Virus record (IMG/VR): IMGVR_UViG_3300035701_000006
Coordinates: 71,267 to 135,266 of that record
DNA length: 64,000 nt
Strand: one strand, 5' to 3'
From: a virus
Taxonomy: Duplodnaviria > Heunggongvirae > Uroviricota > Caudoviricetes
Shown: positions 4,430 through 57,605 of the stretch, piece by piece
How the letters are laid out: the number at the start of each line of letters is the position of its first letter
Position numbering within the stretch: the stretch's first letter is position 1
The notes under the pieces: generated by a model
What the model was told of the DNA's origin: nothing
What the model saw: only the letters and a program-made list of their open reading frames with translations
The model's database searches: none
Made by a program: the position numbers and the translations under genes

Positions 4430-5110
4430 TTGCGTGGCATCCCTATTCGCGGAACGAATATGAACGCTCCTGATCTTAGCGGTTTTGATAAGATAAAGAC
4501 TTGGCTTGAGTTGAACAAGAGGATGGGTACGTACGAGCTTGCGATGATCGCACAGAAATCGCCGTCGACTATTAGGAACTGGAAGCGCAGAGCGGGCCAG
4601 AAGCTCAAGGAGTCCCCATTCCAGAACGTAAAGCACGTTCACAAGCGGCGTCCGATCGAGGTCATTGACGATCCGTCCGTCTGGGACAATGCCCAGTGGT
4701 TCAAGCGGAAGTACGTCGATGAAGGGTATGGAACGCCGACCATCGCCAGGATAATCAATAGATCCAATGTTCTTGTCGTGAATCGTCTGAAGAATCGGTA
4801 TCACATAAAGACGAGAACGCATAAGGAAGCCGTCAAATCGAATTCAAAGCTCTGCAATCTTGAGTGGCTTACGGAGCATTATGTCATCAAGCGGTGGAGT
4901 CTGAAGAAGTGCGCGCAGGTCGCCGGAGTCGTCCCGTATACGATCTACAACTGGCTCATAAAGTTTAAATTGGACCCCAGAAGTATTCACCAGGCCATGG
5001 CTGGCAATTCGAACCCGTTCTTCGGTAGGAAGCATAGCGAAGAGACGAAGGAAAAGATTCGTCGCTCCATACAGGCGCTGTACGCGAACAAGCAGACACT
5101 CAAGACGTGA
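4430..5110 (+). CDS. DNA-binding protein with C-terminal NUMOD3 motif (homing-endonuclease-associated)
   Basis: C-terminal FGRKHSEETKEKIRRS matches the NUMOD3 GxxHSEEtKxKI motif. Confidence 0.45.
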   Translation: MRGIPIRGTNMNAPDLSGFDKIKTWLELNKRMGTYELAMIAQKSPSTIRNWKRRAGQKLKESPFQNVKHVHKRRPIEVIDDPSVWDNAQWFKRKYVDEGYGTPTIARIINRSNVLVVNRLKNRYHIKTRTHKEAVKSNSKLCNLEWLTEHYVIKRWSLKKCAQVAGVVPYTIYNWLIKFKLDPRSIHQAMAGNSNPFFGRKHSEETKEKIRRSIQALYANKQTLKT

Positions 5111-6534: not shown

Positions 6535-9048
6535 ATGACGCAGGTTAAAATTCCTGACCCGAACACGCTCGTCGACCAACAGATCGTAAACGTAGAAGGT
6601 CCTGATGGTATCATCACGACCTATGTTTACGATCTGGAGACGCGATGCCTTACGTACAAGGATTCCCAGATCATCATCCCTCCGTTCCATGGACAGACGC
6701 ACGTCACGTCTGACCCTGTGCCGGATGCGACAGAGGACCTTCACGGCCTGATGTCGTCGGATGACAAGGCGAAGCTGGATGCGCTACTCCAGATGAGGCT
6801 TGGGGTCCTCGGCTTTATGGGGTCGGGGTTCCCAGATGATCAGGGGTGGCTGCAGGGCGATATCATCCTCGCCGCGGGTACAGAGTTCATCAATCTGGAA
6901 CGGGTTGGGAACGTCATCCGGTTCACCGTTGACTCGTCAATCCCCCTATGCTCGTGCGAAGAGTGCGCCCAGATCTTCTGGATTCAGGACGAGAGCGACA
7001 TAGCCTCCATCAGGCCTCCGTCCTGTGGCGGGAAGCTTCCTGGCGCGAACGTCTACGGCGAGTTCAAGGTCTTTCTCCTGCCCGAGACGACCATCTTCGA
7101 TCCGGCTAACCCTCTCGCCACGCTCAACAAGAAGAACAGGTACCCTGCCGTCATCTTCAAGAGGTCGACCGACCAGCTCGTGCCTGGGCAGGCGGAATGG
7201 GAGACTATCCTCAGGCGCCGCAGTAATGGGACGACCTCGGTAGGCTGGGTTATGACACCAGGGCCCACACGGGCCAGGGCTGTCTGGTTCATGGGAGAGG
7301 ATTCCGACGGGAACGACATCCGTTTCGAGTTCGAGTTGAAGTCCGAACCCGGTATCCTCGGCGCGCTTCTCTACAAGGGCCATACTCTGACGCGACGCAT
7401 GGCTGTCATCACGAGCTATGCCCCATCCGTCCTGGCGACCAACCAGTACAACGTGAAGTACTGGGACATCCTCAAGGCGGAGCCGGTCGGCAGCAGCTTC
7501 GTGTCGACAAACATCTGGAAGTACCAGAACCCAGAGAACTCGCCGACGGCTCTCGTCAATCCGAGGCAGCTAGTCCTAGACGGAACGCAGGACATCCTGC
7601 CAATCGGTACGCTCGTGCAGCTTTGGGAATTCAAGATCGCTGAGGTGAGTGGCCAGGCGGTCCTCAAGAGGTTCTTCAACTTGGAGCCCAACCTCGGGGC
7701 GGAGACGCTCTGGGGTCTGACTGGGGCCGTCAGGTTCGGCGATCTCCTCACGGCGAGGAAAGAGTTGGAGTTTGGATCCGAGCCGCAGTCCGGCGTCAGG
7801 ACTGATATTCTCGATGCTTGTCTCTTTGAGCGGACGATCTGGGGGATTACCGGGTTTGAGGATCCCCTTCTCCTGTCGGATGACCTCGACAGCGGCAGCG
7901 GTGAAATCCTGGAGCCGTCTGGCGTGCAGATCAATAACCAGTATGAGGCTGACATCGATCCCGCGCTGCCAGGGCTGAAGGTCGTGGAGAATGTTCCGTC
8001 TGTTGAGAAGATGGAGAGGCCGATATTCCTGTGGCACAGAATCAATCACAGGAATTTCTATACCAGGACGCTCATCGGACAGCCCGAATCGAGCCGATTC
8101 CCGCCGATTGATATCCTGCTCAAGTCCCCCGTCGACAGCGTGGACGACGTCTACATGAAGATCATCCGGCGCGGCATTATCAGCTCTGGACCCTATATCA
8201 ATAAGCGATTCATCATCGCAAAGGGAGCTCAGTGGAAGCAGCTGCCGGCTGATGGGGCTATCAGGGTTCTCACCGGCAGCTTCCGGGACAGGGTCTGGAA
8301 CTACTTCGCTAAGACAAACTTCTCGAACTATGACGACGACGGAGTGATGCTGATCGGCACCGACATGTTCCCGTTCAGTGAGGATGCCACGGGTTCTGTT
8401 GGTGACGAAATCGGATCCGGTTCCGGTGGTAGTACGGTTGACGAAGTACCTCTGCACACGACCGTGGTCGAGCTCCTCCACCTGGATTTCACCTCGCCGG
8501 CTGTACGACTCGAGTTCTCAGTCAATACAACGTCCGGCGACGAGACGGTCCAGCTTCAGTTCAAGTCCGGTACGCTGGATATGAGCCAGCCATACGAACT
8601 CAACCTGTCCGGTGACAATCGCGATGACCTCGTCCGCGGCTTCAAGCAGGGCTATTACGTCAGCGGCATCTACACCCAGAGTGGGTTCATCCACAGCAAT
8701 GAGACTCCGGCGTCAAATCCGGAAGGATTCAAGTGCTACTGGGGCGGGTTCCTGCCCTATGAGATCGATGGGCAGACGGAGCGGTGGAACGTTCTCGAGA
8801 CGATGGTCAGGGACAACCAGCTCTGGATCTGGTGGAATAACCTGCTCATCCCGCCGAGCACGATCGAGAGCGCCAAGCTTCCGACGCCTGTGGTAGTGAA
8901 CACCCCGTACTTCCCGTTCTCATCACCCCTGGACGTTGGGAAGCTCGGACTCCGTCTGTGGCCGCAGGCGAAGATCAGGTCCGTTGAGGTCAGGGACCAG
9001 ATCCTGCGGTACAACGAGTTCGCTCACGGGCAGCTTGAGCTCAGGTAA
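6535..9048 (+). CDS. large hypothetical protein (putative virion structural)
   Basis: 837-aa ORF, TAA stop. Confidence 0.55.
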   Translation: MTQVKIPDPNTLVDQQIVNVEGPDGIITTYVYDLETRCLTYKDSQIIIPPFHGQTHVTSDPVPDATEDLHGLMSSDDKAKLDALLQMRLGVLGFMGSGFPDDQGWLQGDIILAAGTEFINLERVGNVIRFTVDSSIPLCSCEECAQIFWIQDESDIASIRPPSCGGKLPGANVYGEFKVFLLPETTIFDPANPLATLNKKNRYPAVIFKRSTDQLVPGQAEWETILRRRSNGTTSVGWVMTPGPTRARAVWFMGEDSDGNDIRFEFELKSEPGILGALLYKGHTLTRRMAVITSYAPSVLATNQYNVKYWDILKAEPVGSSFVSTNIWKYQNPENSPTALVNPRQLVLDGTQDILPIGTLVQLWEFKIAEVSGQAVLKRFFNLEPNLGAETLWGLTGAVRFGDLLTARKELEFGSEPQSGVRTDILDACLFERTIWGITGFEDPLLLSDDLDSGSGEILEPSGVQINNQYEADIDPALPGLKVVENVPSVEKMERPIFLWHRINHRNFYTRTLIGQPESSRFPPIDILLKSPVDSVDDVYMKIIRRGIISSGPYINKRFIIAKGAQWKQLPADGAIRVLTGSFRDRVWNYFAKTNFSNYDDDGVMLIGTDMFPFSEDATGSVGDEIGSGSGGSTVDEVPLHTTVVELLHLDFTSPAVRLEFSVNTTSGDETVQLQFKSGTLDMSQPYELNLSGDNRDDLVRGFKQGYYVSGIYTQSGFIHSNETPASNPEGFKCYWGGFLPYEIDGQTERWNVLETMVRDNQLWIWWNNLLIPPSTIESAKLPTPVVVNTPYFPFSSPLDVGKLGLRLWPQAKIRSVEVRDQILRYNEFAHGQLELR

Positions 9049-9051
9049 ACC

Positions 9052-9726
9052 ATGAGCGTTGTGAACGATCTTATCCCGTTCCTGATCGACTTTCAGGAAC
9101 GACATGCCCTGGATATTCGAAAGAAGGACGACGTCGCCTCGTTCCTGAAGGACCTCAGGCAGCCTGAGTTGTCCCAGTTCGTGACAAGCACGCCAGACGT
9201 GGAATGGGCCAGCTTCATCGACGAGAATTTCGGGCTGAAGGAGTCCACGCCAAATCAGATCGCCTCGATAATAGAAGAAGATGAGGGATTCGTGCCCGAA
9301 GTTCATGCCAAGAGTCTGACGCCAGCTACTATTTATCTCAAGGACGGATTTGACAGAGCGATGAACATATACATATCTGGGTCTGAGGCGCCTTACGTAG
9401 GGCCAAGGGGAACTACCCCGCCCATAGATGAAATTGAGGAAATCGCCTCGAGATATAAAGGTGACCCTATTGTGGCTGATCACGTGTCGCTGATGAAATC
9501 ACGACACGTGTTGCGCGTTGGGATAGGCAAGAAGACTGGTGCTAAATTTACTCGTGCCTGGTCGTTCGTGACGAAGGACCCCGATCCTATGTTCTGGAAA
9601 ATTGAGCATAGCAGGCCCGGGATCAACACCTCCGATCCCTCGCACACTGCGTATAACATCGAGCGTCAATTTGAGCATATCCTTACGATCCGCGTAGATA
9701 ACATTGCTCGTATCGAGAGGAGGTAG
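9052..9726 (+). CDS. hypothetical protein immediately upstream of RT-associated structured region
   Basis: 224-aa ORF; stop codon overlaps inverted repeat a1. Confidence 0.45.
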   Translation: MSVVNDLIPFLIDFQERHALDIRKKDDVASFLKDLRQPELSQFVTSTPDVEWASFIDENFGLKESTPNQIASIIEEDEGFVPEVHAKSLTPATIYLKDGFDRAMNIYISGSEAPYVGPRGTTPPIDEIEEIASRYKGDPIVADHVSLMKSRHVLRVGIGKKTGAKFTRAWSFVTKDPDPMFWKIEHSRPGINTSDPSHTAYNIERQFEHILTIRVDNIARIERR

Positions 9727-9873
9727 GCTGCCCAGCTGTCAAGCGCCGTTGCGCTTATCCTCGATGCCCGAAAGCTGCGGTTCGCGACCCATGGGGATGG
9801 AAGACCGCAGTACACGGGTTCATGTAAGCCAGTCCCTACGGGACTAGGTGTTTTAATGGCTGGGCAGCCTACC
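9721..9873 (+). ncRNA. retron-like structured RNA candidate flanked by 16-bp perfect inverted repeats
   Basis: AGGTAGGCTGCCCAGC at 9721-9736 and its reverse complement at 9858-9873 flank about 120 nt containing three internal hairpins; overlaps the RT start. Confidence 0.4.
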
Positions 9874-11334
9874 TCCGCTAGTAGATACGGGATGACAAGC
9901 CTACCCCATAAGCTCACCATTGACGACTGTCTCAAAACCGCCTCCCTAGAGTCTTCCGCCTTATATCTCGTCAACAAGATCGCCTTTGATCAGAAGCGCG
10001 GGTATACGAAGTCAACAGACGGCGAGACATATTGGGAATTTGGGGCCGGACTCGAATTCAATGTGAACAGGATCAAGGCCGAAATAGCCAGCAAGAGCTT
10101 CCGATTCGGGCCATGTCACAAGATTGTCAGGCGGATCAAGCAGAACAAGGTCAGGGACGTCTACATATCGTCCTGGCGCGATAGGATCGTCGAGCGCTGG
10201 CTCAATGATTGCCTCAATAAGCTTCTCAACGGCTGGTTCTCGCCGAACGCCTACGCCTACCGTATAGAGGAACTTGGGTTGGATAGTTGCCAGAATGAGG
10301 TAGCGCGATCTATAAACCCGTACTCGTTCATAGTGAAGCGCGACATCTCGAATTACTTCTATACCATCGACCATGGTATTTTGCTGGCGAAGCTCGCAGA
10401 GATCATAGACGAGCGCGATTACCTCTATGAGCTCGTCAGACAGCGCATCCAGTTCGGGTATGTCGAGGACGGGAGTATTCGGACGGCTACTATCGGCATC
10501 CCGTTCGGCGCGTCAGTAGCCTGTACACTCGCGAACATCTACCTGACGGACGCCGACAAGGTCGTCGCTGCCTTACCGGTGAAATATTTCAGGTACGCGG
10601 ATGATTTCCTTATCGTATCAGACAAGGAAGAGGTAGCGAGTGAGGCGGCCCGCCTATTAGACAGTATGATAACGGACCTCAAGCTAACCATGAAGCCAGC
10701 ACATTACCTTAATGCCTGCTTCGTAGACGGCAAATCGTCGTTTACGAAGGTGTCCAGGTTCAAGTACCTTGGTCTTGAATTTACGGCCGACAAGGTTAAG
10801 TTGGCCGTCGAGAAGCAGCGCAAGGTCATGAACTTCTTCAAACGGGGCCTTGAATATGTGAGCGGCAGAATCAAGAGGGCGACTGATATTGATGAGAAGC
10901 TTAAGATCGCCATTAAGATGATTAACACCATAGCTAAGGATCGGATTCGGAGCGTGGCTATCATAGATTATTACATCAAGCATATGAACGACGAGAACCA
11001 GCTCCGAGTAATGGACAGACTCGTGGCGGAGATGGTCATAAGCTGCGTGCTAGGCAAGAAATTTAGGCAGAAGGACTTCAGGGTCATACCCTACGAAAAG
11101 CTCAGAAAACTGGGTTTGATATCTATGCTACACAGGCACAGGTTATATGCCCATGGGCATCTTAGGTTAAACTTTATGTCACTGCATAACGAACTTATCA
11201 CGAGGCGTTTCGTTGACATGATGAACCGCCGGAAGGCTAGGATAGACCACATGAAGATGAGTCGGAAGATTCAGCAAGGAGTACAGTTGCCGTCAAAATT
11301 AACATATGCATCCGAGCATCAGGCGCGCGTTTGA
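9856..11334 (+). CDS. reverse transcriptase
   Basis: RT motifs KRDISNYFYTIDH (motif 2), IGIPFGASVACTLANIYL (motif 4), FRYADDFLIV (YADD motif 5), FKYLGLEF (motif 7). Confidence 0.8.
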   Translation: MAGQPTSASRYGMTSLPHKLTIDDCLKTASLESSALYLVNKIAFDQKRGYTKSTDGETYWEFGAGLEFNVNRIKAEIASKSFRFGPCHKIVRRIKQNKVRDVYISSWRDRIVERWLNDCLNKLLNGWFSPNAYAYRIEELGLDSCQNEVARSINPYSFIVKRDISNYFYTIDHGILLAKLAEIIDERDYLYELVRQRIQFGYVEDGSIRTATIGIPFGASVACTLANIYLTDADKVVAALPVKYFRYADDFLIVSDKEEVASEAARLLDSMITDLKLTMKPAHYLNACFVDGKSSFTKVSRFKYLGLEFTADKVKLAVEKQRKVMNFFKRGLEYVSGRIKRATDIDEKLKIAIKMINTIAKDRIRSVAIIDYYIKHMNDENQLRVMDRLVAEMVISCVLGKKFRQKDFRVIPYEKLRKLGLISMLHRHRLYAHGHLRLNFMSLHNELITRRFVDMMNRRKARIDHMKMSRKIQQGVQLPSKLTYASEHQARV

Positions 11335-12961
11335 GCAAGGGAACCGGCCATTCAGCCAGCATCCCGTTCTTGGTCCCCATGGCCAGGATCTCGCGTTCAG
11401 CCAGTTTGAACACCTAAAGGGACTGGTCAGACAGTCAACGGGCTCTGAGCGGATCGACATGGGCCAGATGATGGCTCTCCTCCAGCAGACCATAGCGCTT
11501 GAGGAGCCGCACAAGGAACAGCTCGAGCGCCTGGCAATTCAGATCGTTGCCAAGGTCTGGAAGGCTAAGCCGGAACTGTTCGAGGCTGAGATCGGAGAAA
11601 CCGGGCCGCCACCCGAGGAGGAGCCCGAGGAAGAGGAAGAGCTCACTCCAGAACAGATCAGAGAGATTAACAAGAGGATCACTCTCAACACGATCATTCA
11701 CGGTGCCTCCATCCACCAGATGACGACCATGCACCATCTGGCCAAAGAGGCTATCGACAGAATCGATCCTCAGCTCATTCCGTTCTACGATAAGTTATCA
11801 CGTACCATGAACTATAGCGGATGGTTCATGAATCTCGATATGCTGATGACCCAGCTCGGGCAGAAGGGTGGCCAAAACGAGATCGTTTGGGATGAGGATA
11901 CCCCGAAGATCCAGGCAAAAGGAATCATATTCCCCATCCTGGTACATGAGCTGTCCAAGGGCTGCGTGGAGCTAATTACGCACCATGGTCTCCCCAAGGA
12001 TCCCGACATGCTCAAGGTAGTGCTTAAGCATGCCGATAAAGACCTGGAAGAGATGTTCCACTTCTTCATGGGTCCAGAACTCTGGCGTAGGTTCTTGAAG
12101 CTGGTTGACATGGAGCAGATCCCAGAGATCGTCATGGCTCTATCGAAGCTGGAGCCGGATAAGCTTCATGAGATTATGTCCCTCATAGCTAGTAGCATGA
12201 AGGAAGATCCGACCAATGTGAAGAAGATGATCGCTGACCTCGTACAAGAACCGGAGGAATTTGAAGTGAAAGACTGGGAACCGGAAGAGCCAGGGTCGGA
12301 AGAGGGCAAGGGAGAGTTTGAGGACATCCAGAAGATCGCCGACTCGATCTCCGAGGATGTTCCGGCTCCTTCTGCCCCGACGAAGCCTGCTCACATGCCC
12401 ACAAAACCAGGGACTCCAGAGAAGCCAGACCCTTATAGGCCTCCGAAGCCCGCTTTCCAGCCGAAACCAAAGGCGGGAGCCGCTCCTTCTGCTCCGACGA
12501 AGCCTGCTCCTACGCCCACAAAACCAGGAACTCCAGAGAAGCCAGATCCCTACAGGCCTCCGAAGCCCGCTTTCCAGCCGAAGCCAAAGGCGACTCATGT
12601 GATGCAAGGAGTTGACGAGTGTACATTCGAAAGTAAATTAGATATGGCCATCACAGAAGCATTCGAGACATATAAGGTTACCATAGACTGCCATCCGCGG
12701 AGGTCTGACCCGTCTCAGTGTAAGCACCCCGAGTGTCCGACGAGGGTCGCCATTGGGGAGTACATGCCGAAGGCAGAGGCTATTCTCATGGCGAGAGATT
12801 ATTACGATCATGGTAGCAAGATGGAGCCGGAAGGTACGCCTGCCGTGCCAGCATACCACGGGACACACCCGGAAGACATCCCTGCAGAGCTTGAGCTCGC
12901 TGGTGGGCCTGTGGATCTGCCGCCGCCGGAAGAAGAGCTCGGAGCGGGTGGCGTGTTTTAA
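11306..12961 (+). CDS. proline-rich protein with internal tandem duplication
   Basis: 551-aa ORF; two tandem copies of about 40 aa; true start may be downstream. Confidence 0.5.
   Translation: MHPSIRRAFEQGNRPFSQHPVLGPHGQDLAFSQFEHLKGLVRQSTGSERIDMGQMMALLQQTIALEEPHKEQLERLAIQIVAKVWKAKPELFEAEIGETGPPPEEEPEEEEELTPEQIREINKRITLNTIIHGASIHQMTTMHHLAKEAIDRIDPQLIPFYDKLSRTMNYSGWFMNLDMLMTQLGQKGGQNEIVWDEDTPKIQAKGIIFPILVHELSKGCVELITHHGLPKDPDMLKVVLKHADKDLEEMFHFFMGPELWRRFLKLVDMEQIPEIVMALSKLEPDKLHEIMSLIASSMKEDPTNVKKMIADLVQEPEEFEVKDWEPEEPGSEEGKGEFEDIQKIADSISEDVPAPSAPTKPAHMPTKPGTPEKPDPYRPPKPAFQPKPKAGAAPSAPTKPAPTPTKPGTPEKPDPYRPPKPAFQPKPKATHVMQGVDECTFESKLDMAITEAFETYKVTIDCHPRRSDPSQCKHPECPTRVAIGEYMPKAEAILMARDYYDHGSKMEPEGTPAVPAYHGTHPEDIPAELELAGGPVDLPPPEEELGAGGVF
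12363..12596 (+). repeat. in-frame tandem direct repeat, 2 x about 117 bp
   Basis: two near-identical copies with scattered substitutions not restricted to adenines. Confidence 0.8.
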
Positions 12962-20657: not shown

Positions 20658-20732
20658 GCGCCCGTAGCACAATGGCCAGTGCGCCGGTCTCTAAAACCGG
20701 CGATACGGGTTCGATACCCGTCGGGCGCACCA
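20658..20732 (+). tRNA. amber suppressor tRNA, anticodon CUA
   Basis: acceptor GCGCCCG/CGGGCGC, D stem GCAC/GTGC, anticodon stem CCGGT/ACCGG, loop CTCTAAA (anticodon at 20691-20693), T arm CGGGT-TCGATAC-CCCGT, encoded CCA. Confidence 0.75.
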
Positions 20733-26477: not shown

Positions 26478-26836
26478 TGGTGGACCCGGGGGGAATCGAA
26501 CCCCCGTCTCACAGAGTTTTTCCTGGCCGTCCACGCTCATCTCCGCCGTCTGCGATTTAGCGTCTTCCCGGCTATGACAGGCGGCCTACTTTACCGGGGA
26601 TCGACGGGCGATTTGTTTTCTCATCCCGTTTCGGCTCGCAATACCTCGGGACCAGCCGAGCATTAACGTCCCAAATCACTGACTATCGGCGTATGTCAGG
26701 CGGGACGGACCGCTTTACGCGGCCATGAGCACGGGCTCAGCAGTTGTGTTTGCCTGACATTTTTAACGAGGCCAAGTCAGGCGGTCCTCGGAGCGCAGGC
26801 TTCGGATTCCCTCCATGATCGATGCCGATCGGGCCC
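26478..26836 (-). ncRNA. ssrA: tmRNA (ssrA-like)
   Basis: tRNA-like ends GGGCCCG...GGGGGTTCGATTCCCCCCGGGTCCACCA; internal UUGGCCUCGUUAAAAAUG segment resembles the E. coli tmRNA pre-tag region; possible tag frame GCA AAC ACA ACU GCU GAG CCC GUG CUC AUG GCC GCG UAA (ANTTAEPVLMAA). Confidence 0.6.
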
Positions 26837-32480: not shown

Positions 32481-32526
32481 AAGGTTGAGACCCAGTCAAT
32501 TCTTAAATACTGTTGTCGGAAGCCTT

Positions 32527-32612
32527 GGTACCCCCAGCAGGACTTGAACCTGCAAGCCTTTTGGGCGACGGATTAAGAGTCCGTTGTGGTTGCCACTACC
32601 ACGGTTGGGGGC
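32527..32612 (-). tRNA. tRNA-like, anticodon CUU (Lys) with extended variable arm
   Basis: acceptor GCCCCCA/TGGGGGT, anticodon stem ACGGA/TCCGT, loop CTCTTAA, 13-nt variable hairpin GCC-CAAAA-GGC, T arm GCAGG-TTCAAGT-CCTGC, CCA. Confidence 0.45.
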
Positions 32613-32642
32613 TCCAAGGCTTCCGTCAAAAGTAAATAAAAT

Positions 32643-33293
32643 ATGAAAAACAAAACAATTAATATTCGGTGCCACCAGTGCAAGAAATGGTTCAAGAAAG
32701 ACAGGCGGATGTATTGCAAAGCCAAGAAGCGCAAACGGGTTGGATTTTTCTGTTCTATTAAATGCCTCAAAGAATATCAATCTATTCTTTTCGCAACCAA
32801 TCCAAAAGAATCTCCGCACAAATGCTCTAGATGTGCGCACATGTTCAGAGGAAAATGCCGCCTTTGCAGATCGTGCAGGGAGTTATTCAAGATTTGTATC
32901 TTGTGCAAGCGTCTATTGCCGAAAGCTAAGTACAAAGACTCATTTTGTCCAGCATGCCGATCACAATATCAGACGAGTATTTGGATAAGAAAAAAAGTAA
33001 AGGCTATAAAGTATCTTGGAGGAATATGCAAGGATTGTCGGAAGATTGGGCCAAAAGACTATTATCTTTTGGATTTTCATCACAGGGATCGTAGAAAAAA
33101 GGATGTTGCTTGGAACAACATCAGGAAAAGATCATGGCCGAGGGTATTATTAGAGATTTCTAAATGCGATCTACTGTGTTCAAATTGCCACCGCCGCAGA
33201 CATCACAAGGAAGGAGGCTACTATATTGCTAACAGAAAACATGGGAAATTCATGGTGCCCCCGGCTGGAATCGAACCAGCTTCCCCGCTTTAA
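32643..33293 (+). CDS. HNH endonuclease (paralog of the 23143 gene)
   Basis: LDFHHRDRRKKD...CDLLCSNCHRRRHH plus multiple CxxC pairs. Confidence 0.55.
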   Translation: MKNKTINIRCHQCKKWFKKDRRMYCKAKKRKRVGFFCSIKCLKEYQSILFATNPKESPHKCSRCAHMFRGKCRLCRSCRELFKICILCKRLLPKAKYKDSFCPACRSQYQTSIWIRKKVKAIKYLGGICKDCRKIGPKDYYLLDFHHRDRRKKDVAWNNIRKRSWPRVLLEISKCDLLCSNCHRRRHHKEGGYYIANRKHGKFMVPPAGIEPASPL

Positions 33294-35270: not shown

Positions 35271-35405
35271 GTGGAGCGATCGAACCCTCCTTGCCATCTT
35301 CAGGTGCTGACATCCCTGGCGCTTTAGGCCCTAGGTGCCGCACGCCCGAAGACGTTCAGCGTTGTGGCGGCTGTATAAGTAGCTCCGCCGACCTGAAGAT
35401 GGCGT
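35271..35405 (-). ncRNA. Y-RNA-like structured RNA candidate adjacent to rsr
   Basis: 12-bp terminal helix CCAUCUUCAGGU/ACCUGAAGAUGG (plus 35294-35305 with 35391-35402); internal UUCG hairpins; 3' T-arm mimic GGAG-GGUUCGAUCG-CUCC; lies immediately downstream of the TROVE gene. Confidence 0.45.
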
Positions 35406-35437
35406 GGAGGGTGGGTGATTGCTCACCCACCACTCCT

Positions 35438-37081
35438 TTACTCGCTGTCGGCCTTTTCCTTCCCGAACGTGTCCAGGTCGATCTTGCGGACTTCCTCGAC
35501 CTGGTTCGAAGTGCCGTTCACGACCAGCGGGATGTACCTGAGCACCGAGTCCGACCACCCACTGACGTAGTGAACGTCCGGGTAACCCGCCGGGGCGACC
35601 CAATCGCGGTACGGCGCGATGTTGATGAGCACGGCCTTGGCCTTCGGGCTGCGGGTGCGCTTGTACTTCTCCCACGCCGTAAGGAACCCGCTGCCGGCCC
35701 AGTCCTCGCTGTCCGTGATTCCGATGAACGTGTCGATCACGAGGCCGCGGTGTCCGAGGTACTCGATCGGAGCACCGAGGTTCGTCCCGCCGATCGCTAC
35801 GCCAATCTTGGCCGCGATGTCCATGATCGTCGAGCGGCGGCTGAGACCCTTGGTCAGGTCGGTCCTGACCCCGTTCTCGAACGGCAGAAGGATGACGTTC
35901 TCCTGCTTCTTGAACAGCGCCGCTCCGAACAGACCCGCGATGTCGCACATGCGTGTGCTGCCGCGGTCGGAAACCTGGCTGCTCATCGAGCCGGAGACGT
36001 CGTTCGAGATGCAGACGCGGCCCGGAAGAGTCTCGACGTTCTCGAAGCTCTGCTCGAGGGCATCCACGATGGCGTCCTTGACGGCCTGATGGCCCTGGAA
36101 CGCCTGGAACGCGTTGAAGAAGCGGAACGGGAACTGCTTGCTCTTGCGGACGTTCTCCTTGTCAGAGAGCTTGCCCGCAACCAGCTTGGCGACTGCGTCG
36201 TCCTTGAAGACGTCGTGCCGCTCCATCGTGGCGAGGTTCCGTAGGAGGGCCATGTACGGCATGCCCGCCAGCAGCGCCTTCCAGATGTTCACGGTCATCT
36301 TCTTGACGGACGGGACGACGACCTCCCACGGGAGGCGGTACTTCACGACGAGGTCGATGATCTGAGCCTCGTCGGTCGAGCGCTTGAGCGTCTCAAGTGC
36401 CCAGACGAGCGGATTGGTCGGAGAGGGACTGGCACCGACGCTCTGCCAACCCTTGACCAGCCATCCGAACAGCTCTTCCTGGGCGCGGTTGACAGGCCGG
36501 GGATGTGCCATCCGGATGATGTCGCGGAGCGTAATGTCTTCGGAGCGTGCCGAGCCGTACTTCACGGCGTGGTACTCCGAGATGTGCTGCAGCCAGCGCT
36601 TGACGGCATCCCGTGCCTCGCCGCCGAGACCCTTGCGGATCTCGCCCGTGCGGCAGAGCGACACGAACTCGCGCAGGTCGTCGGGGGTCTTGACAACGTG
36701 CTGGAAGGCCGCCCGGAAGTTAGTCTTCTTGGCGGTCTTCTCGTGCGCGGAGAGCACGGTGAGGCCCACGACGGGGGCCAGCTTCATGAGGCCCTTTGTG
36801 CGGGCGTAGACGAGGGCCTTCGCGAGGAAGGTGGGGTCCTTCTCCGCCATCTTGGTGATGACGTCCACCGTTTCCTTGGCGAGGGTCTTCTCGTCCGCGT
36901 AGAAGGTGTTCCCGAGCGTGTTGGTCGTGAGGACTGCGAGCGTGTCCTCTTCGATCGACCGGTCGAATGTGGGGAATCCCTCCTTGTTGAGCTTCGTGGC
37001 CTTCCGGTAGGTCTTGGAGATCTGAAGGCCCGTGCGGGGTGACGCCGGAGACGTGCCGAACAGCTTGCTTGCCCTGGCCAT
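35438..37081 (-). CDS. rsr: Ro60/Rsr ortholog (TROVE domain plus vWA domain)
   Basis: TTNTLGNTFYADEKTL resembles the TROVE GGxYYASExKL segment; C-terminal vWA with MIDAS motif DVSGSMSS; AGGAGG Shine-Dalgarno before ATG (MARASKLF). Confidence 0.75.
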   Translation of the reverse strand: MARASKLFGTSPASPRTGLQISKTYRKATKLNKEGFPTFDRSIEEDTLAVLTTNTLGNTFYADEKTLAKETVDVITKMAEKDPTFLAKALVYARTKGLMKLAPVVGLTVLSAHEKTAKKTNFRAAFQHVVKTPDDLREFVSLCRTGEIRKGLGGEARDAVKRWLQHISEYHAVKYGSARSEDITLRDIIRMAHPRPVNRAQEELFGWLVKGWQSVGASPSPTNPLVWALETLKRSTDEAQIIDLVVKYRLPWEVVVPSVKKMTVNIWKALLAGMPYMALLRNLATMERHDVFKDDAVAKLVAGKLSDKENVRKSKQFPFRFFNAFQAFQGHQAVKDAIVDALEQSFENVETLPGRVCISNDVSGSMSSQVSDRGSTRMCDIAGLFGAALFKKQENVILLPFENGVRTDLTKGLSRRSTIMDIAAKIGVAIGGTNLGAPIEYLGHRGLVIDTFIGITDSEDWAGSGFLTAWEKYKRTRSPKAKAVLINIAPYRDWVAPAGYPDVHYVSGWSDSVLRYIPLVVNGTSNQVEEVRKIDLDTFGKEKADSE

Positions 37082-37137
37082 TCTTGGCCCTCCTTGATGG
37101 AGCCGGGGCAAAAGCCCCAGCAGTTTCCTGGAACGTG

Positions 37138-54551: not shown

Positions 54552-57500
54552 ATGGCGAATAACACGTCTGAAATCACGCTGCCGTTCGACGGGCAGGAAT
54601 TTATAGACGCCTCGAGAACTCTGTGGCGCTACGATTCATCGATCCAAGCCTGGCGGCACGTCGGTCCCGTTGAGAACGTCCCGCTTGCTAGCGACATCGC
54701 TACCGGTCTCCTGTCCGCCGTCTTCAAGCAGATGTTGGACAATATTCCGGAGAAGGGCGGCGGCTTCGGAATCGTCGTGAAGCCGTTTCTGTCACTGAAG
54801 TCTCCGACGAATCCTGATGGCGTCATAACGGGTAAGGTCAATGTCATCAGCGATTCGATGGACATTAGCTGCCTCGGAGTAGATGGCAAGCCCCTGATAG
54901 GCGAATGTGGTAGATTCTTGCCGGACGTCGCTCCAGGCTCCGGTGAAGAGGTAAAGCGGCCGTCCATCACGTTCAAGCTGTCGGAGGAGTTCCTCAAGAC
55001 CCTGTGTATCGAGCTCGTGTCGGCTCCGGGTCCGACGGGCAAGAAGGGTGGGCAGGGAGATCCCGGCAAGCCTGGAACTGGCGATGGTCCCCAAGGAGAT
55101 GACGGCGACAGCGGAAAGAATGCTGCGGGTCAGCTTAAATTCGCCGGAATAGACATCCGCGATACGGATGACGTGTTCGACACGGCAGTGACTGCCGTCG
55201 AAGTGGATCAGGAAGGTGGCAAGCTGGCCGTCACCAAGTCGAAGGTTCGTGCCCCAGCGGACGATACACCTGCGACTCAGGCCATCTCGACGCAGATAGA
55301 CAGGTCCATCGAGTTCTCCAGCGGATTCGACTACACCATCTTGATGGCACCGAACGACCCCATTAACAGACCCGATGTCACGATGGTCGGCCTGCCGCAG
55401 GGGTTCGAACCGAATGGTACCAACAAGACGACTCTGAACGCCGTAAGGTTAAGCGCGTTCCTGGGCCTCGTCATCGACGATTACAAGAATCGCCTAGCTA
55501 AGATAGATGAGGCTTATACGAAGGAAATTCACGACTTCATCGTCGACAAGGACGCGAAGGCGCGCGACGCCATCAACAGTCTCGCCTGTCAGCTCTCTGA
55601 GGCTGAATGGAACCTCCCGATAGACTACTGCTGTCTGCCAGGTACGATGATAACGGTAGACAACTTTATAGTAAAGCCAATAGAGGACATTAAGGCGGGC
55701 GAATTGGTTCTTTGTTCGGATGGCAAGATTCACCGGGTGAAGAGGTCAATGGTCCGCCAGGTCGATGAACCCATAGTAGACATCTTGATCAGCGGTGGCG
55801 GCAGGATTCTATCCCTGACCGGTGAACACCCTGTCCTCACGGCTCCGTTTGAAGCAGTACGAAGGAAGGGCCATGGTCGGCGTAGAACCTATCGGCACGA
55901 CATTAGCAAGCAAGATTTCTACTGGTCTGCGGCATTATCTCTCAGGGAGAATGATCTCCTGTTCTCGCCGTATCCGGTGATTCGCTCGACTAGCTTGCCG
56001 CTCGATCTTTGCGAATTCCTAGGCTATTATGCAGCTGAAGGTGATGCAAGAAACTACTGCGTAAGGTTCGGGCTGGGACTACATGAAGGGCGGCTTGCTA
56101 GTAAGATAGCTACCATCGGATTGAGGCTCGGCGCTACTAGCACTAGTGTCAATAGGACGCGATCGTCGATTCAGGTGTGCGTTTATGGCAAGAGGATGTG
56201 TGAAATCTGTGTACAGCACATAGGTAAGGGTGCTAAGAGCAAGGTACTGTCGAAGGAGATAATGGGGCTGCGAGGCCTTGAATTCGCATATTTCGTCAGG
56301 GCACTCTTTGAGGGAGATGGTAGCGTCACTTTCTCTTCTACCGCACCTAGATCACAACTTGCAACCGCATCCGTGAGCATGGCTGAACAAGTTTATTGGC
56401 TCTTGCTCGCGAACGGCATCGTTTCTACCAAATGGTATGGCACATTCCCAGGAGGTCCTAGCAACCGCAGCAAGAGAAGCTTCCAAAGCAGAATCAGTCT
56501 TTCACGCAACGAAACAGCCAAGCTCTGGCCGCAAGTTGGGGGCACTGAGCTATCCATTCCGTCAGGCACGTTCGCTATAGACGGTGGCGTCGCATACCGC
56601 GTGGTAAAGGTGACGAAGAGGAGATATAAGGGATCCGTCTACAATCTGGAAGTGGAAAAGGATAACACGTACATCGCCAACAGTGTTGTCGTGCATAACT
56701 GCCTTGGACTTTCGCCCGGCGATTGCAAGGGTTCGAATGATCCAAAAGAGGCTACGTTCAGGCTGGCGGGAAGCATATTCGGCCCATCATTCTGCGAGAC
56801 GTCCAAGGCTGAAGATCTTGGTACTTATTACGTCCCTGCGGGTGCGGGTCAGTCCAGACCCCTCGTCGAGGTGAAGTACCCCAATAGCGGAGGCATGTCC
56901 TCGACGCAGCTTCCCGTCGGGGGTTATATCGTGGTCTACGAGGGTGGCACGTTGAAGGACGCCTCGAGACCGGACCTCGGTAACTTCGTTGGTAGGCCCG
57001 ATATCGGATTTGGCCTCACAGTTAGCTTCATCGGTGTTGGTGGTAGTATCAAGATAATCCCAGACATCACATCCTGCGACAGGAATGATCCCGTCAGCGT
57101 TGAGGCGGCCTACCGCAACGCTGATATCAGTAAGAAATCTGTCTGGGCGATCCTGACTGCAGTCCCTAAGATCAACCTCGCAGCAAAGATGCCGGCCCCC
57201 TATGACAATCCCTCTGGCGTCATCGCCGTGCATATTTATCGCGTGCTACCCTGTGACGCCGGCGATGTGTACTTTGGTAGCGCCACGTATGGGGTTGATC
57301 CGGAGCATTCAAGCACCATGATCGCCCAGGTCCTGCGAAAAGCGGGGTCTATTGGCATGATGACGGTCGACTTCGCGACGAAGGATGGGGCTGCCATTGC
57401 TGGTACCGATTACACCGCGCAGAACGGTACGCTCAGCTTTGGTGAAGGCGAACTTGTAAAGATCATCACCATTCAGATAGCTCACTCAGAAGACGGCGAA

Positions 57501-57605
57501 GGCGGAATAAAGTCGTTCACGATCTCCCTGAGCAACCCGCAAGGAGGCGGCCTCGGCGATCTTACTACGACGACCATGGAGATACTCTATTCCGAGTACG
57601 CATAA
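54552..57605 (+). CDS. intein-containing collagen-like / Calx-beta domain protein (putative structural)
   Basis: G-X-Y run GPTGKKGGQGDPGKPGTGDGPQGDDGDSGK; C-terminal Calx-beta-like MMTVDFATKDGAAIAGTDYTAQNGTLSFGEGE; interrupted by intein. Confidence 0.7.
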   Translation: MANNTSEITLPFDGQEFIDASRTLWRYDSSIQAWRHVGPVENVPLASDIATGLLSAVFKQMLDNIPEKGGGFGIVVKPFLSLKSPTNPDGVITGKVNVISDSMDISCLGVDGKPLIGECGRFLPDVAPGSGEEVKRPSITFKLSEEFLKTLCIELVSAPGPTGKKGGQGDPGKPGTGDGPQGDDGDSGKNAAGQLKFAGIDIRDTDDVFDTAVTAVEVDQEGGKLAVTKSKVRAPADDTPATQAISTQIDRSIEFSSGFDYTILMAPNDPINRPDVTMVGLPQGFEPNGTNKTTLNAVRLSAFLGLVIDDYKNRLAKIDEAYTKEIHDFIVDKDAKARDAINSLACQLSEAEWNLPIDYCCLPGTMITVDNFIVKPIEDIKAGELVLCSDGKIHRVKRSMVRQVDEPIVDILISGGGRILSLTGEHPVLTAPFEAVRRKGHGRRRTYRHDISKQDFYWSAALSLRENDLLFSPYPVIRSTSLPLDLCEFLGYYAAEGDARNYCVRFGLGLHEGRLASKIATIGLRLGATSTSVNRTRSSIQVCVYGKRMCEICVQHIGKGAKSKVLSKEIMGLRGLEFAYFVRALFEGDGSVTFSSTAPRSQLATASVSMAEQVYWLLLANGIVSTKWYGTFPGGPSNRSKRSFQSRISLSRNETAKLWPQVGGTELSIPSGTFAIDGGVAYRVVKVTKRRYKGSVYNLEVEKDNTYIANSVVVHNCLGLSPGDCKGSNDPKEATFRLAGSIFGPSFCETSKAEDLGTYYVPAGAGQSRPLVEVKYPNSGGMSSTQLPVGGYIVVYEGGTLKDASRPDLGNFVGRPDIGFGLTVSFIGVGGSIKIIPDITSCDRNDPVSVEAAYRNADISKKSVWAILTAVPKINLAAKMPAPYDNPSGVIAVHIYRVLPCDAGDVYFGSATYGVDPEHSSTMIAQVLRKAGSIGMMTVDFATKDGAAIAGTDYTAQNGTLSFGEGELVKIITIQIAHSEDGEGGIKSFTISLSNPQGGGLGDLTTTTMEILYSEYA
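55632..56699 (+). mobile_element. intein (Hint domain) with LAGLIDADG homing endonuclease
   Basis: block A CLPGTMITVDNF, block B LTGEHPVLT, LAGLIDADG-type motifs GYYAAEGD and LFEGDGSV, block F/G VYNLEVEKDNTYIANSVVVHN followed by +1 Cys. Confidence 0.75.

What the first reader, a model, noticed from the sequence alone, without database searches (positions are those of the whole stretch)
9721..11334. Reverse transcriptase preceded by inverted-repeat-flanked structured RNA (retron-like)
A 492-aa RT with canonical motifs 1-7 including FRYADDFLIV has no maturase/endonuclease tail. Its start lies inside the right copy of a perfect 16-bp inverted repeat that brackets about 120 nt with three internal hairpins.

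This resembles the a1/a2-flanked msr-msd of retrons. A retron in a phage-like region would be unusual. Alternatives are a diversity-generating retroelement (DGR) or an unclassified defence-associated RT.
Basis: partly seen in the sequence, partly recalled or inferred. Interest (0 to 1): 0.65.

Follow-up and report, generated by a model that had tools for sequence, protein, structure and literature searches.

The report
Phage reverse transcriptase with partner RNA
A giant-phage-like genome carries a compact three-part cassette (an unknown protein, a 160-base folded RNA and a reverse transcriptase) that belongs to a large, apparently undescribed family of RNA-guided reverse transcriptases related to, but distinct from, the bacterial anti-phage "DRT" enzymes and retrons.

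Summary
An 18-bp perfect inverted repeat (9719-9736 / 9859-9876; 21 bp with G-U pairs) closes a ~160-nt RNA with three internal hairpins. It lies directly in front of an intact reverse transcriptase (RT) with a YADD active site.

The RNA is a real, conserved partner of this RT family. A covariance model built from 8 relatives finds it next to the RT in about 150 of about 170 related loci. Across those, 91.8% of cells are paired, against 62% after shuffling, and 30 of 33 pairs show compensatory changes.

Its position varies. It is upstream in giant-phage contigs, on the opposite strand in one phage subgroup, and just downstream of the RT in Acidobacteriota, Planctomycetota and Verrucomicrobiota. 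So it is a stand-alone RNA, not a leader.

The RT is not a retron, DGR or group II intron RT. It sits roughly equidistant from group II intron RTs and the UG17 (DRT10) and UG26 groups, and its fold resembles GsI-IIC and DRT9.

Phage versions always carry a new upstream protein, "X" (9052-9726). Bacterial versions instead carry a zinc-ribbon protein after the RNA.

Best reading: a new DRT-like RT-ncRNA system. The cDNA product and biological role are inferred, not shown.

The parts
9052..9726 (+). Gene X (224 aa). It is the phage-specific upstream partner protein. Its TAG stop codon (9724-9726) lies inside the 5' arm of the RNA's closing stem.
   Evidence: A divergent family with a conserved C-terminal core of about 110 aa ('RGTVI.ADH ... 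VGIGP ... DPSH ... F.KILTIN..NI.SI'). It was found next to the ncRNA in every giant-phage locus and in no bacterial locus. Searching from X itself (P0242, P0246) again recovers X-ncRNA-RT. It has no Pfam, PADLOC, PHROG, NCBIfam or PDB match.
9719..9876 (+). Structured ncRNA, about 158 nt. The covariance-model match is 9729-9866.
   Evidence: Covariance model R1 scores 103.6 bits, E = 1e-23, and finds only one copy in the window. Fold z = -7.8. The family alignment has 91.8% of cells paired, and 30 of 33 pairs change on both sides.
9719..9739 (+). P1, 5' arm of the closing stem. It pairs with 9856-9876.
   Evidence: 18 bp perfect plus 3 G-U/A-U pairs. In relatives the stem is 11-27 bp with unrelated sequences. 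All 10 modelled P1 pairs covary.
9741..9756 (+). P2, a small hairpin (AAGCGC-CGUU-GCGCUU), followed by the conserved linker AUCC.
   Evidence: Read from the sequence. The equivalent 'CAGGC...GCCUG' hairpin and 'UAUCC' linker occur in relatives. P2 is not in the covariance model.
9766..9819 (+). P3, a long hairpin. P3a is 9766-9770 / 9815-9819 and P3b is 9774-9782 / 9803-9811. It has an AAA/ACA internal loop and a conserved apical UGGGGAUGG (9792-9800).
   Evidence: Helices 2 and 3 are 94-97% paired, and 12 of 14 pairs covary. 'GAAGC', 'GUAGA' and 'UGGGAuGG' are the most conserved unpaired motifs.
9828..9849 (+). P4 hairpin, preceded by the conserved junction AUGUAAG (9822-9828).
   Evidence: Helix 4 has 8 of 9 pairs covarying. 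See also the junction alignment.
9850..9855 (+). J4/1, a single-stranded GUUUUA segment between P4 and the 3' arm of P1. This is the candidate template or active-site segment, by inference only.
   Evidence: 'CGUUU(U)' directly 3' of P4 is the most conserved junction across phage group A and the bacterial relatives. Phage group B has CGUAGU or CGUAAU instead.
9856..9876 (+). P1, 3' arm of the closing stem. It contains the first in-frame ATG (9856).
9856..11334 (+). Reverse transcriptase ORF. It is 492 aa from ATG 9856, or more likely 480 aa from ATG 9892. The YADD active site is at 10594-10605.
   Evidence: Pfam RVT_1, 5e-19. PADLOC UG17 1e-39 and UG26 1e-38. TIGR04416 group II RT, 142.6 bits against a cutoff of 300. 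The AF2 model has pLDDT 93. Foldseek gives GsI-IIC and DRT9 with TM about 0.6.

Best explanation
Window 9052-11334 is a compact three-part cassette, X - ncRNA - RT. It is carried by a giant-phage-like genome and belongs to a large, so far unnamed family of RT-ncRNA systems.

**Shown.**
- The ~160-nt RNA is an independent, structurally conserved partner of this RT clade. Its elements are the closing stem P1, small hairpin P2, long hairpin P3 with a conserved GGGAUGG apex, hairpin P4, and conserved junctions AUGUAAG and (C)GUUUU.
- The RNA travels with the RT wherever the RT goes, in any orientation.

**Inferred from DRT2, DRT9, DRT10 and retrons.**
- The RT binds this RNA to form a ribonucleoprotein.
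- The RNA serves as both scaffold and template.
- The RT repeatedly copies a short single-stranded segment. The most likely segment is the U-rich junction just 3' of the P4 hairpin, with P4 acting as template boundary.
- The product is repetitive or A-rich single-stranded cDNA.

**Guess.**
- X, a soluble non-membrane protein, is the phage-specific third component. It could be a binder, regulator or effector acting on the RNA or the cDNA.
- It takes the place that a zinc-ribbon/beta-barrel protein holds in the bacterial versions.
- The role in the phage is either exclusion of competitors or interference with host ssDNA-sensing defences.
For: **RNA-RT association.**
- Covariance model R1, built from 8 phage loci, gave 90 hits over the window plus 93 related loci.
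- It also hits 66 of 80 bacterial genome loci, always abutting the RT.

**Structure.**
- RNAalifold predicts 33 pairs, 24 with compensatory changes in only 8 sequences.
- In 85 distinct sequences, 91.8% of cells are paired against 62.0 +/- 0.6% after shuffling.
- Sliding the 3' partner by 1-3 columns gives 30-42% paired.
- The covariation score is 0.66 against 0.18 after shuffling.

**Independence from cis position.**
- Upstream on the same strand in phage group A, upstream on the opposite strand in L001/2/4/5 and L164, downstream on the same strand in bacteria.
- Some phage loci carry 2-3 copies.

**RT affinities.**
- Full-length profile matches are best to UG17 (DRT10) and UG26.
- The fold matches DRT9 over its whole length (TM 0.60-0.63) and GsI-IIC (TM 0.62 / 0.72).
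- The catalytic YADD is intact.

**Architectural parallels in the literature.**
- DRT10 ncRNAs are 137-143 nt, with a basal stem decorated with small stem-loops and a template loop downstream of a boundary stem-loop (PMC12632851; 10.64898/2026.04.29.721553).
- DRT9 ncRNA has a conserved U4 template near its 3' end (PMC12483538).
- A phage-borne class 2 UG RT with its own ncRNA has a precedent in UG27 (PMC9226505).

**The X-ncRNA-RT cassette.**
- X homologues sit next to the ncRNA in all phage loci examined.
- The cassette is recovered independently starting from X.
Against: - No experiment or RNA-seq shows that the RNA is expressed, bound or copied.
- The RT is not a member of any defined UG group. 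The best score is about 130-145 bits, similar to its score against group II intron RTs. Analogy to DRT9 and DRT10 therefore rests on a distant relationship.
- A test for DRT10-style A-B-A' template repeats in the junction gave no enrichment: 43 of 71 sequences, against 45 +/- 4 in shuffles.
- The U-tract is replaced by CGUAGU or CGUAAU in phage group B.
- No conserved C-terminal Tyr or Ser tail for protein priming is evident. The only conserved hydroxyl residues are Y372/Y373 and S423, inside folded helices.
- Bacterial relatives sit among syntenic housekeeping-type genes rather than obvious defence islands. A defence role is therefore not established even for them.
Confidence: 0.7

Rival explanations
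1. A genuine retron. P1 would be the a1/a2 duplex. A conserved G at the inner end of the 5' arm would be the branching guanosine. The RT would make a multicopy single-stranded DNA by copying P4 and the upstream RNA from the 3' arm inward.
For: The RNA is flanked by an inverted repeat and lies directly upstream of the RT in the window. The last position of the 5' arm is a well-conserved G followed by unpaired 'cCA'. The automatic JGI annotation calls the protein 'retron-type reverse transcriptase'.
Against: Retron RT profiles score far below their cutoffs: 50.7 bits against 235, and PDB retron RTs 23-47 bits. Group II, UG17 and UG26 profiles score 112-143 bits. The RNA lies downstream of the RT in about 130 bacterial loci and on the opposite strand in five phage loci, unlike retron operons. 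Rfam has no match. No known retron effector is adjacent. The 'retron-type' label is only the generic COG3344 name.
Confidence: 0.1
2. A cis-acting regulatory RNA for the RT gene. It would be a translational operator or attenuator that hides the RBS and start codon in P1 and P4, like the group II intron DIVa operator bound by its own RT. It would not be a template.
For: In the window and phage group A, the RT start lies within -10 to +32 nt of the 3' arm of P1. P4 plus GUUUU is flagged as terminator-like. ATG 9856 and an AGGUG 5 nt upstream of it are buried in P1 and P4.
Against: The same RNA is found after the RT stop codon in bacteria. It is found on the other strand, or 1.4 kb away, in phage group B and L164. 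It also occurs in extra copies next to X paralogues with no RT behind them. The P4 stems are often AU-rich and the U run is only 3-4 nt, so it makes a poor terminator. Autoregulation could still be a secondary role in group A.
Confidence: 0.07
3. A group II-intron-like (G2L-type) RT that works on DNA or RNA substrates other than this RNA, for example in repair or template switching as G2L4 does. The RNA would be only a structural cofactor or a relic of an intron.
For: The best sequence and structure matches include group II intron RTs: TIGR04416 142.6 bits; 5hhl and 7uim 112 bits; GsI-IIC TM 0.62/0.72; G2L4 TM 0.56. Bacterial copies sit in stable, syntenic chromosomal contexts.
Against: No ribozyme domains are present. 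There is no Intron_gpII or any other Rfam hit on 9000-12000 or in 15 related loci. Pfam does not detect a GIIM domain. The ORF is not embedded in an intron: coding gene X ends at the RNA. A 160-nt RNA that has covaried with the RT across phyla argues for a specific functional RNP.
Confidence: 0.08
4. A diversity-generating retroelement (DGR).
For: It is phage-borne with an RT of similar size. A 111-nt repeat pair lies in the gene just downstream.
Against: The repeat is a head-to-tail 117-nt coding duplication (a Pro-rich 39-aa unit) whose substitutions are mixed transitions, not adenine-specific. No Avd-like protein was found. The RT is about 25% identical to Brt over the RT domain only. The DGR RT structure match is weaker, at 63 bits.
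Confidence: 0.01

Closest known systems
DRT10 (UG17 RT + SLATT + ncRNA; Tang et al. 2025 PMC12632851; Sanchez-Nieto et al. 2026 10.64898/2026.04.29.721553)
   Same: It is a three-part locus of RT plus a ~140-nt ncRNA plus one small protein. The ncRNA has a basal stem closing several small stem-loops. It has a single-stranded segment directly 3' of a boundary hairpin. The UG17 profile aligns over the full RT length (residues 49-459 on positions 27-417 of 429).
   Different: The score is only 134.6 bits, which is not a member-level score. There is no SLATT or transmembrane protein, and X is soluble and unrelated. The gene order is X-ncRNA-RT rather than ncRNA-SLATT-RT. No A-B-A' enrichment was found. 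It is carried by giant phages rather than enterobacterial defence islands.
DRT9 (UG28 RT + ncRNA; PMC12483538)
   Same: There is whole-length structural similarity, TM 0.60-0.63 to 9nlv, 9vma and 9ioa. The ncRNA is highly conserved in sequence and structure. It has a conserved short U-tract in a junction near the 3' end (GUUUU 9850-9854, against U123-126 in SenDRT9).
   Different: The Drt9 profile scores only 78 bits. An extra protein partner is present (X, or the zinc-ribbon protein). No C-terminal tyrosine tail is conserved. The U-tract is absent in phage group B.
UG27 (class 2 UG/Abi RT of gut phages with a predicted ncRNA; Mestre et al. 2022 PMC9226505)
   Same: It is a phage-encoded RT with an adjacent conserved ncRNA of three stem-loops and an associated unknown protein cluster. 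No defence enrichment was reported.
   Different: The UG27 profile scores 60 bits. The hosts and viruses differ: small gut phages there, against 125-364 kb environmental contigs here. The RNA and partner proteins are different.
Retrons (msr-msd + RT + effector)
   Same: An ncRNA flanked by an inverted repeat lies next to an RT, and a conserved G sits at the end of the 5' arm.
   Different: The RT is outside the retron clade. The placement of the RNA is variable. No retron effector is present, and Rfam and covariance-model searches find no similarity.
Group II intron RTs and G2L4
   Same: These are the top sequence and structure matches for the fingers, palm and thumb. The RT binds a dedicated structured RNA.
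   Different: There is no ribozyme, no GIIM or En domain by Pfam, and the RT is not inside an intron.

Membership tests
Retron | RT belongs to the retron RT clade | tested here: not met
   NCBIfam retron_St85_RT scores 50.7 bits against a cutoff of 235. PDB retron RTs score 23-47 bits, against 112 for group II RTs. No retron RT model is among the top 25 PADLOC hits.
Retron | msr-msd RNA bracketed by the a1/a2 inverted repeat, upstream of and co-oriented with the RT | tested here: inconclusive
   This is met in form in the window. In relatives, however, the same RNA lies downstream of the RT or on the opposite strand.
Retron | Production of branched msDNA from a 2'-OH of a conserved G | not testable with these tools
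   A conserved G ends the 5' arm. No biochemical data are available.
DGR | Template/variable repeat pair with adenine-specific differences, plus an Avd accessory protein | tested here: not met
   The only repeat near the RT is a tandem coding duplication with mixed transitions. There is no Avd hit. Only the 64-kb window was searched.
Group II intron | Ribozyme domains (D5/D6) flanking the ORF, and a GIIM maturase domain | tested here: not met
   An Rfam E-value scan of 9000-12000 and a gathering-threshold scan of 15 relatives found no intron family. Pfam finds RVT_1 only. TIGR04416 scores 142.6 bits against a cutoff of 300.
DRT10 / UG17 | RT scores as a UG17 member | tested here: not met
   RT_UG17 scores 134.6 bits (1e-39). 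This is similar to UG26 (131 bits), a generic RT profile (139.9) and group II (142.6). None of the 28 family members does better than 1e-40 to 1e-45.
DRT10 / UG17 | Adjacent SLATT (2-TM) effector | tested here: not met
   There is no SLATT, Pfam or PADLOC hit in X, in the downstream ORF or in other neighbours. The X sequence has no hydrophobic segment.
DRT10 / UG17 | ~140-nt ncRNA with a basal stem, small stem-loops and a template loop after a boundary stem-loop | tested here: met
   The architecture is P1 + P2 + P3 + P4 + J4/1, supported by covariation. This is a resemblance of architecture only. No DRT10 ncRNA sequence was available to compare.
DRT10 / UG17 | A-B-A' repeat in the template loop | tested here: inconclusive
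   43 of 71 sequences have one, against 45 +/- 4 in shuffles. Suggestive fixed-spacing repeats exist in subgroups: CGUUUC..12 nt..CGUUUC, and UAGUCCUAGU.
DRT9 / UG28 | RT scores as a UG28 member | tested here: not met
   The Drt9 profile scores 78.4 bits. PDB 9ioa scores 81.8 bits. Fold similarity is TM about 0.6.
DRT9 / UG28 | Conserved poly-U template, and poly-dA product primed by C-terminal Tyr | tested here: inconclusive
   GUUUU is conserved in most members but not in all. No conserved C-terminal Tyr is present. The product cannot be tested here.
New RT-ncRNA family (this report) | RT clade member with an adjacent R1-type ncRNA | tested here: met
   The window hit scores 103.6 bits. There are 90 hits in the window plus 93 related loci and 66 of 80 genome loci.
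New RT-ncRNA family, phage branch | X protein ending at the 5' arm of the ncRNA | tested here: met
   Window X is 9052-9726. X homologues occur in all 16 phage-type loci. The reciprocal search from X recovers the cassette.

The most novel reading that the evidence does not exclude
The X-ncRNA-RT cassette could be a phage-owned relative of the DRT9, DRT10 and telomerase-like enzymes that serves the phage rather than killing the cell. The RT would spool out repetitive or A-rich single-stranded DNA from a few template nucleotides in the ncRNA. That DNA might titrate host ssDNA-sensing defences or exonucleases, or protect or prime phage DNA ends. The tandem X-ncRNA cassettes seen in some phages would give one RT several alternative RNA programmes. 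The bacterial RT-ncRNA-zinc-ribbon systems would be the cellular counterpart, a new three-part system built on the same RNP.
Probability: 0.15. Interest if true: 0.85.

Novelty: new variant of a known kind. Interest (0 to 1): 0.7.

Why it matters
RT-ncRNA systems such as retrons, DRT2, DRT3, DRT9 and DRT10 have each revealed an unexpected way of making DNA: msDNA, de novo genes, poly-dA, and telomere-like repeats.

This locus points to another family of that kind, with these features:
- Its own highly conserved RNA, absent from Rfam.
- Its own partner proteins, absent from Pfam, PADLOC and PHROGs.
- Hundreds to thousands of members in poorly studied phyla, including Acidobacteriota, Planctomycetota, Verrucomicrobiota and Elusimicrobiota.
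- A separate branch in giant phages that swapped the partner protein and sometimes multiplied the RNA.

The family sits between group II intron RTs and class 2 UG RTs. That part of the RT tree was recently tied to the origin of telomerase.

A covariance model, exact RNA boundaries and a set of diverse loci are now in hand. The product and role of the system can therefore be tested directly by heterologous expression and cDNA sequencing.

Tried and rejected
- **Rfam.** The E-value scan of 9000-12000 and the gathering-threshold scan of 15 related loci gave no RNA family.
- **Deposited phages.** blastn 'distant' found no DNA match. tblastn found only RT-domain hits at 33% identity or less, to DGR and retron-type RTs.
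- **DGR.** The 111/117-nt repeat at 12365-12592 is a coding tandem duplication.
- **SLATT or known effectors near the RT.** None found.
- **The bacterial zinc-ribbon partner in the window or phage loci.** hmmsearch over six frames found nothing.
- **A-B-A' template repeats in J4/1.** Not enriched over shuffles, so no template is assigned.
- **A conserved C-terminal priming Tyr or Ser.** Not evident from the alignment. Model coordinates could not be inspected.
- **The downstream 551-aa ORF (11306-12961) as a partner.** Its homologues in L001, L002, L004 and L159 lie about 3 kb away on the other strand. That is loose synteny, not a cassette.
- **Read-through fusion of X and RT.** In the window they share a frame and are separated only by the TAG at 9724-9726, and the phage encodes a CUA-anticodon tRNA. 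In relatives the frames differ or other stops intervene. TAG is also a frequent stop here, in 26 of 64 long ORFs. This is probably coincidence.
- **Function of X.** Pfam, PADLOC, PHROGs, NCBIfam, PDB sequence search and two large protein searches gave only a handful of unannotated relatives.
- **Literature.** Searches for a phage or jumbo-phage RT with an ncRNA of this kind found no description.
Full report
**1. The observation**

The + strand ORF 9856-11334 encodes a 492-aa protein with a single Pfam domain, RVT_1 (5e-19). It has an intact active site, FRYADDFLIV, with YADD at 10594-10605.

Immediately 5' of it lies an inverted repeat. It is 18 bp perfect (9719-9736 / 9859-9876) and 21 nt at 95% complementarity (9716-9736 / 9859-9879), with 122 nt between the arms. 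With G-U pairs the stem runs 21 bp, 9719-9739 / 9856-9876.

The enclosed RNA folds very strongly. The MFE of 9700-9900 is -104.8 kcal/mol, z = -7.8, and 0 of 200 shuffles fold as well. It is the only long-range repeat in the window that has both an 18-bp perfect core and a spacer above 100 nt.

Two details need correction.
- The more probable start codon is ATG 9892. That matches the 480-aa public gene call P0001. Relatives start 2-7 residues before the conserved 'LT..D' motif, and residues 1-10 are disordered in the model. On that reading the RT begins 15 nt after the stem rather than inside it.
- About 180 aa of helical, thumb-like C-terminal region follows motif 7. 'No tail' is therefore true only for GIIM and HNH domains.

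**2. The setting**

The window looks like part of a very large phage.
- It has 41 tRNA genes plus a tmRNA on the minus strand between 20.6 and 53 kb.
- It encodes NAPRTase, glycosyltransferases and an intein/LAGLIDADG-containing protein.
- Most ORFs are orphans.

The closest RT relatives (44-60% identity) lie on IMG/VR viral contigs of 125-364 kb and on similar metagenomic contigs. No deposited phage genome has a close homologue.

**3. The RNA is a conserved, independent partner of the RT**

In every close relative a long stem of 11-27 bp occupies the same place but has an unrelated sequence. The interior has the same layout throughout:
- a small hairpin, P2
- a 'UAUCC' linker
- a long hairpin, P3, with an AAA/UAGA internal loop and an apical 'GGGAUGG'
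- an 'AUGUAAG' junction
- a hairpin, P4
- a 'GUUUU' junction

An 8-sequence alignment gave 33 consensus pairs, 24 of them with compensatory changes. A covariance model built from it (R1) gave 90 hits over the window plus 93 related loci. It also hit 66 of 80 loci from species-representative bacterial genomes.

On 85 distinct sequences:
- 91.8% of cells are paired, against 62.0 +/- 0.6% after shuffling.
- Sliding the 3' partner by 1-3 columns gives 30-42% paired.
- 30 of 33 pairs change on both sides.
- The covariation score is 0.66 against 0.18.

Some bias towards the model structure is expected in a model-derived alignment, but the margin is large.

The RNA's position is not fixed.
- In phage group A (the window, L003, L081, L161-L163, L165-L167) it abuts the RT start on the same strand.
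- In phage group B (L001, L002, L004, L005) and in L164 it lies on the opposite strand.
- Several phage loci carry two or three copies.
- In the bacterial relatives (35-41% identity; Acidobacteriota, Planctomycetota, Verrucomicrobiota, Elusimicrobiota, Omnitrophota and others) it lies directly after the RT stop codon.

A structure that follows the RT in any orientation is a trans-acting RNA partner. It is not a 5' leader, terminator or transposon end. Rfam has no family for it.

In the window, the family-consensus fold costs -91.7 kcal/mol against the unconstrained MFE of -92.8.

**4. What kind of RT**

| Comparison | Result |
|---|---|
| PADLOC generic RT | 139.9 bits |
| PADLOC RT_UG17 (= DRT10) | 134.6 bits, full length |
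| PADLOC RT_UG26 | 131 bits |
| PADLOC UG4 / Drt2 / Drt9 / UG27 | 98 / 86 / 78 / 60 bits |
| NCBIfam group II RT/maturase (TIGR04416) | 142.6 bits, cutoff 300 |
| NCBIfam retron_St85 | 50.7 bits, cutoff 235 |
| PDB sequences: group II RTs / Cas6-RT-Cas1 / DRT9 / DRT2 / retrons | ~112 / 110 / 82 / 52 / 23-47 bits |

None of 28 diverse family members matches any UG model better than about 1e-45.

The AF2 model has pLDDT 93. Its best structural matches are GsI-IIC (TM 0.62 / 0.72) and the DRT9 cryo-EM structures (TM 0.60-0.63 over the whole length). G2L4 and DRT2 follow.

The RT therefore belongs to a distinct clade, placed between group II intron-like RTs and class 2 UG/Abi RTs. It is outside the retron and DGR clades. 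Without reference sequence sets I could not exclude that it coincides with one of the poorly defined 'G2L' classes, such as the G2L5 of Planctomycetes mentioned in PMC8934634.

**5. Partner proteins**

In the bacterial loci a conserved ~165-aa protein follows the RNA. It was found in 133 loci by blastp.
- It has an N-terminal CxxC...CPNPxC zinc ribbon.
- It has no Pfam or PADLOC family.
- All database relatives are annotated 'hypothetical'.
- Its AF2 model (pLDDT 80) shows a zinc ribbon, a small beta-barrel and helices. Structural matches are only weak, to Tudor, SH3 and WYL-like folds at E of 0.03-0.3.

This protein is absent from the window and from all phage loci.

The phage loci instead carry a different protein, X. 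In the window it is the 224-aa ORF 9052-9726.
- Its stop codon lies within -8 to +23 nt of the 5' arm of P1 in group A loci.
- X is very divergent but has a conserved C-terminal core.
- It is present, often as two or three paralogues alternating with RNA copies, in all phage-type loci. Examples are L162 and L168, arranged X2-RNA2-X1-RNA1-RT. In group B the order is RNA-X-RNA-X on the minus strand.
- Starting from X alone, a full-library search found only 7 relatives. Both evaluable contigs again show X-RNA-RT: L249 with 72.9 bits and L251 with 121.4 bits for the RNA.
- X has no hit in any domain or structure library.
- It has no hydrophobic segment, so it is not a SLATT analogue.

**6. How it most likely works**

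*Shown:*
- a catalytically intact RT
- a dedicated, covarying ~160-nt RNA
- a lineage-specific third protein, all packed into one cassette

*Inferred by analogy.* The analogy is to the experimentally characterised RT-ncRNA systems nearest in sequence and fold: DRT10 (PMC12632851; 10.64898/2026.04.29.721553), DRT9 (PMC12483538) and DRT2.
- The RT binds the RNA as scaffold and template.
- It iteratively copies a short single-stranded segment.
- My candidate is J4/1 (GUUUUA, 9850-9855), directly 3' of hairpin P4. P4 would act as the template boundary.
- The '(C)GUUU' motif is the most conserved junction.
- Its place near the 3' end parallels the U4 template of SenDRT9.

*This step is weak.*
- The U-tract is replaced in phage group B.
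- A-B-A' repeats are not enriched.
- No conserved priming residue could be identified.

*Biological role.* The role in a giant phage is open. It could be exclusion of competing phages, interference with host ssDNA-sensing defences, or something else. The bacterial relatives sit among syntenic housekeeping-type genes (CLC channel, ComM-like ATPase, STAS), not obvious defence islands. A defence role should therefore not be assumed.

**7. Rivals**

- **Retron.** It fits the look of the window locus but fails on RT clade and on RNA placement.
- **Cis-regulatory leader.** It is contradicted by the variable placement, although occlusion of the RT start in group A may add autoregulation.
- **Group II intron or G2L-type RT without templating RNA.** No ribozyme is present, and the RNA's tight co-evolution with the RT argues for a specific RNP.
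- **DGR.** It is excluded within the window.

**8. Novelty**

I found no Rfam family, PADLOC, Pfam or PHROG model, deposited phage or paper describing this RT-RNA pair or its partners.

The concept is known: an RT with a dedicated ncRNA, including one phage-borne precedent, UG27 (PMC9226505). I therefore rate this as a new variant of a known kind. It has new RNA and protein components, an unusual giant-phage branch, and a testable mechanism.

Noticed in passing
L085:281-2362 (RT 281-1678, ncRNA 1664-1828, partner 1859-2362); likewise L106, L121 and about 130 other loci: Bacterial relatives form a three-part system: RT, then the same ncRNA, then a ~165-aa zinc-ribbon/beta-barrel protein of unknown family. 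They occur in Acidobacteriota, Planctomycetota, Verrucomicrobiota, Elusimicrobiota and Omnitrophota. The flanking genes are syntenic and housekeeping-like rather than defence islands.
   Followed up: partly
L162:3563-5001; L168:2335-4001; L002:2780-3996 (minus strand); L005:2435-4017 (minus strand): Some giant-phage loci carry two or three tandem 'X protein + ncRNA' cassettes for a single RT. In one subgroup the cassettes lie on the strand opposite to the RT. The copies differ in the junction after P4.
   Followed up: partly
window 20658-53073: A very large tRNA array: 41 tRNA genes plus a tmRNA (26478-26836), nearly all on the minus strand. One + strand tRNA has a CUA anticodon (20658-20732, called tRNA-Pyl by ARAGORN), which would be a potential amber suppressor. 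TAG is nevertheless a common stop in the window's long ORFs (26 of 64).
   Followed up: partly
window 9052-11334: X and the RT are in the same reading frame, separated only by the TAG at 9724-9726, with no other stop across the ncRNA. Amber read-through would fuse them. This is not conserved in relatives, so it is probably coincidence.
   Followed up: yes
window 12365-12592: A head-to-tail duplication of 117 nt (92% identical) lies inside ORF 11306-12961. It encodes a Pro-rich 39-aa repeat (APSAPTKPA..TKPGTPEKPDPYRPPKPAFQPKPKA). It is not DGR-like.
   Followed up: yes
window 54552-57605: A 1017-aa ORF contains an intein with a LAGLIDADG homing endonuclease and a C-terminal Calx-beta domain.
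   Followed up: no
window 35284-35412 and 32496-32646: Two other long-range inverted repeats. One is 22 nt at 91% with an 85-nt spacer, next to tRNA-Arg(tct). The other is 41 nt at 78% and brackets tRNA-Lys(ctt). They may be further structured RNAs or tRNA-processing elements.
   Followed up: no
window 4430-5110 and 35438-37111: An HNH endonuclease-like ORF (phrog_8446) lies 4.6 kb upstream of the cassette. A 557-aa ORF on the minus strand matches phrog_850, 'RNA-binding protein' (1.8e-53), within the tRNA region.
   Followed up: no
bacterial RT C-termini, e.g. P0078, P0085, P0087: Many bacterial RT gene calls run on into the ncRNA (conserved tail '...CRSAGETAFSPFPEAAASKSP'), while others stop at '...RGTVARL'. 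The conserved 'peptide' tail probably reflects RNA conservation and over-extended gene calls.
   Followed up: no
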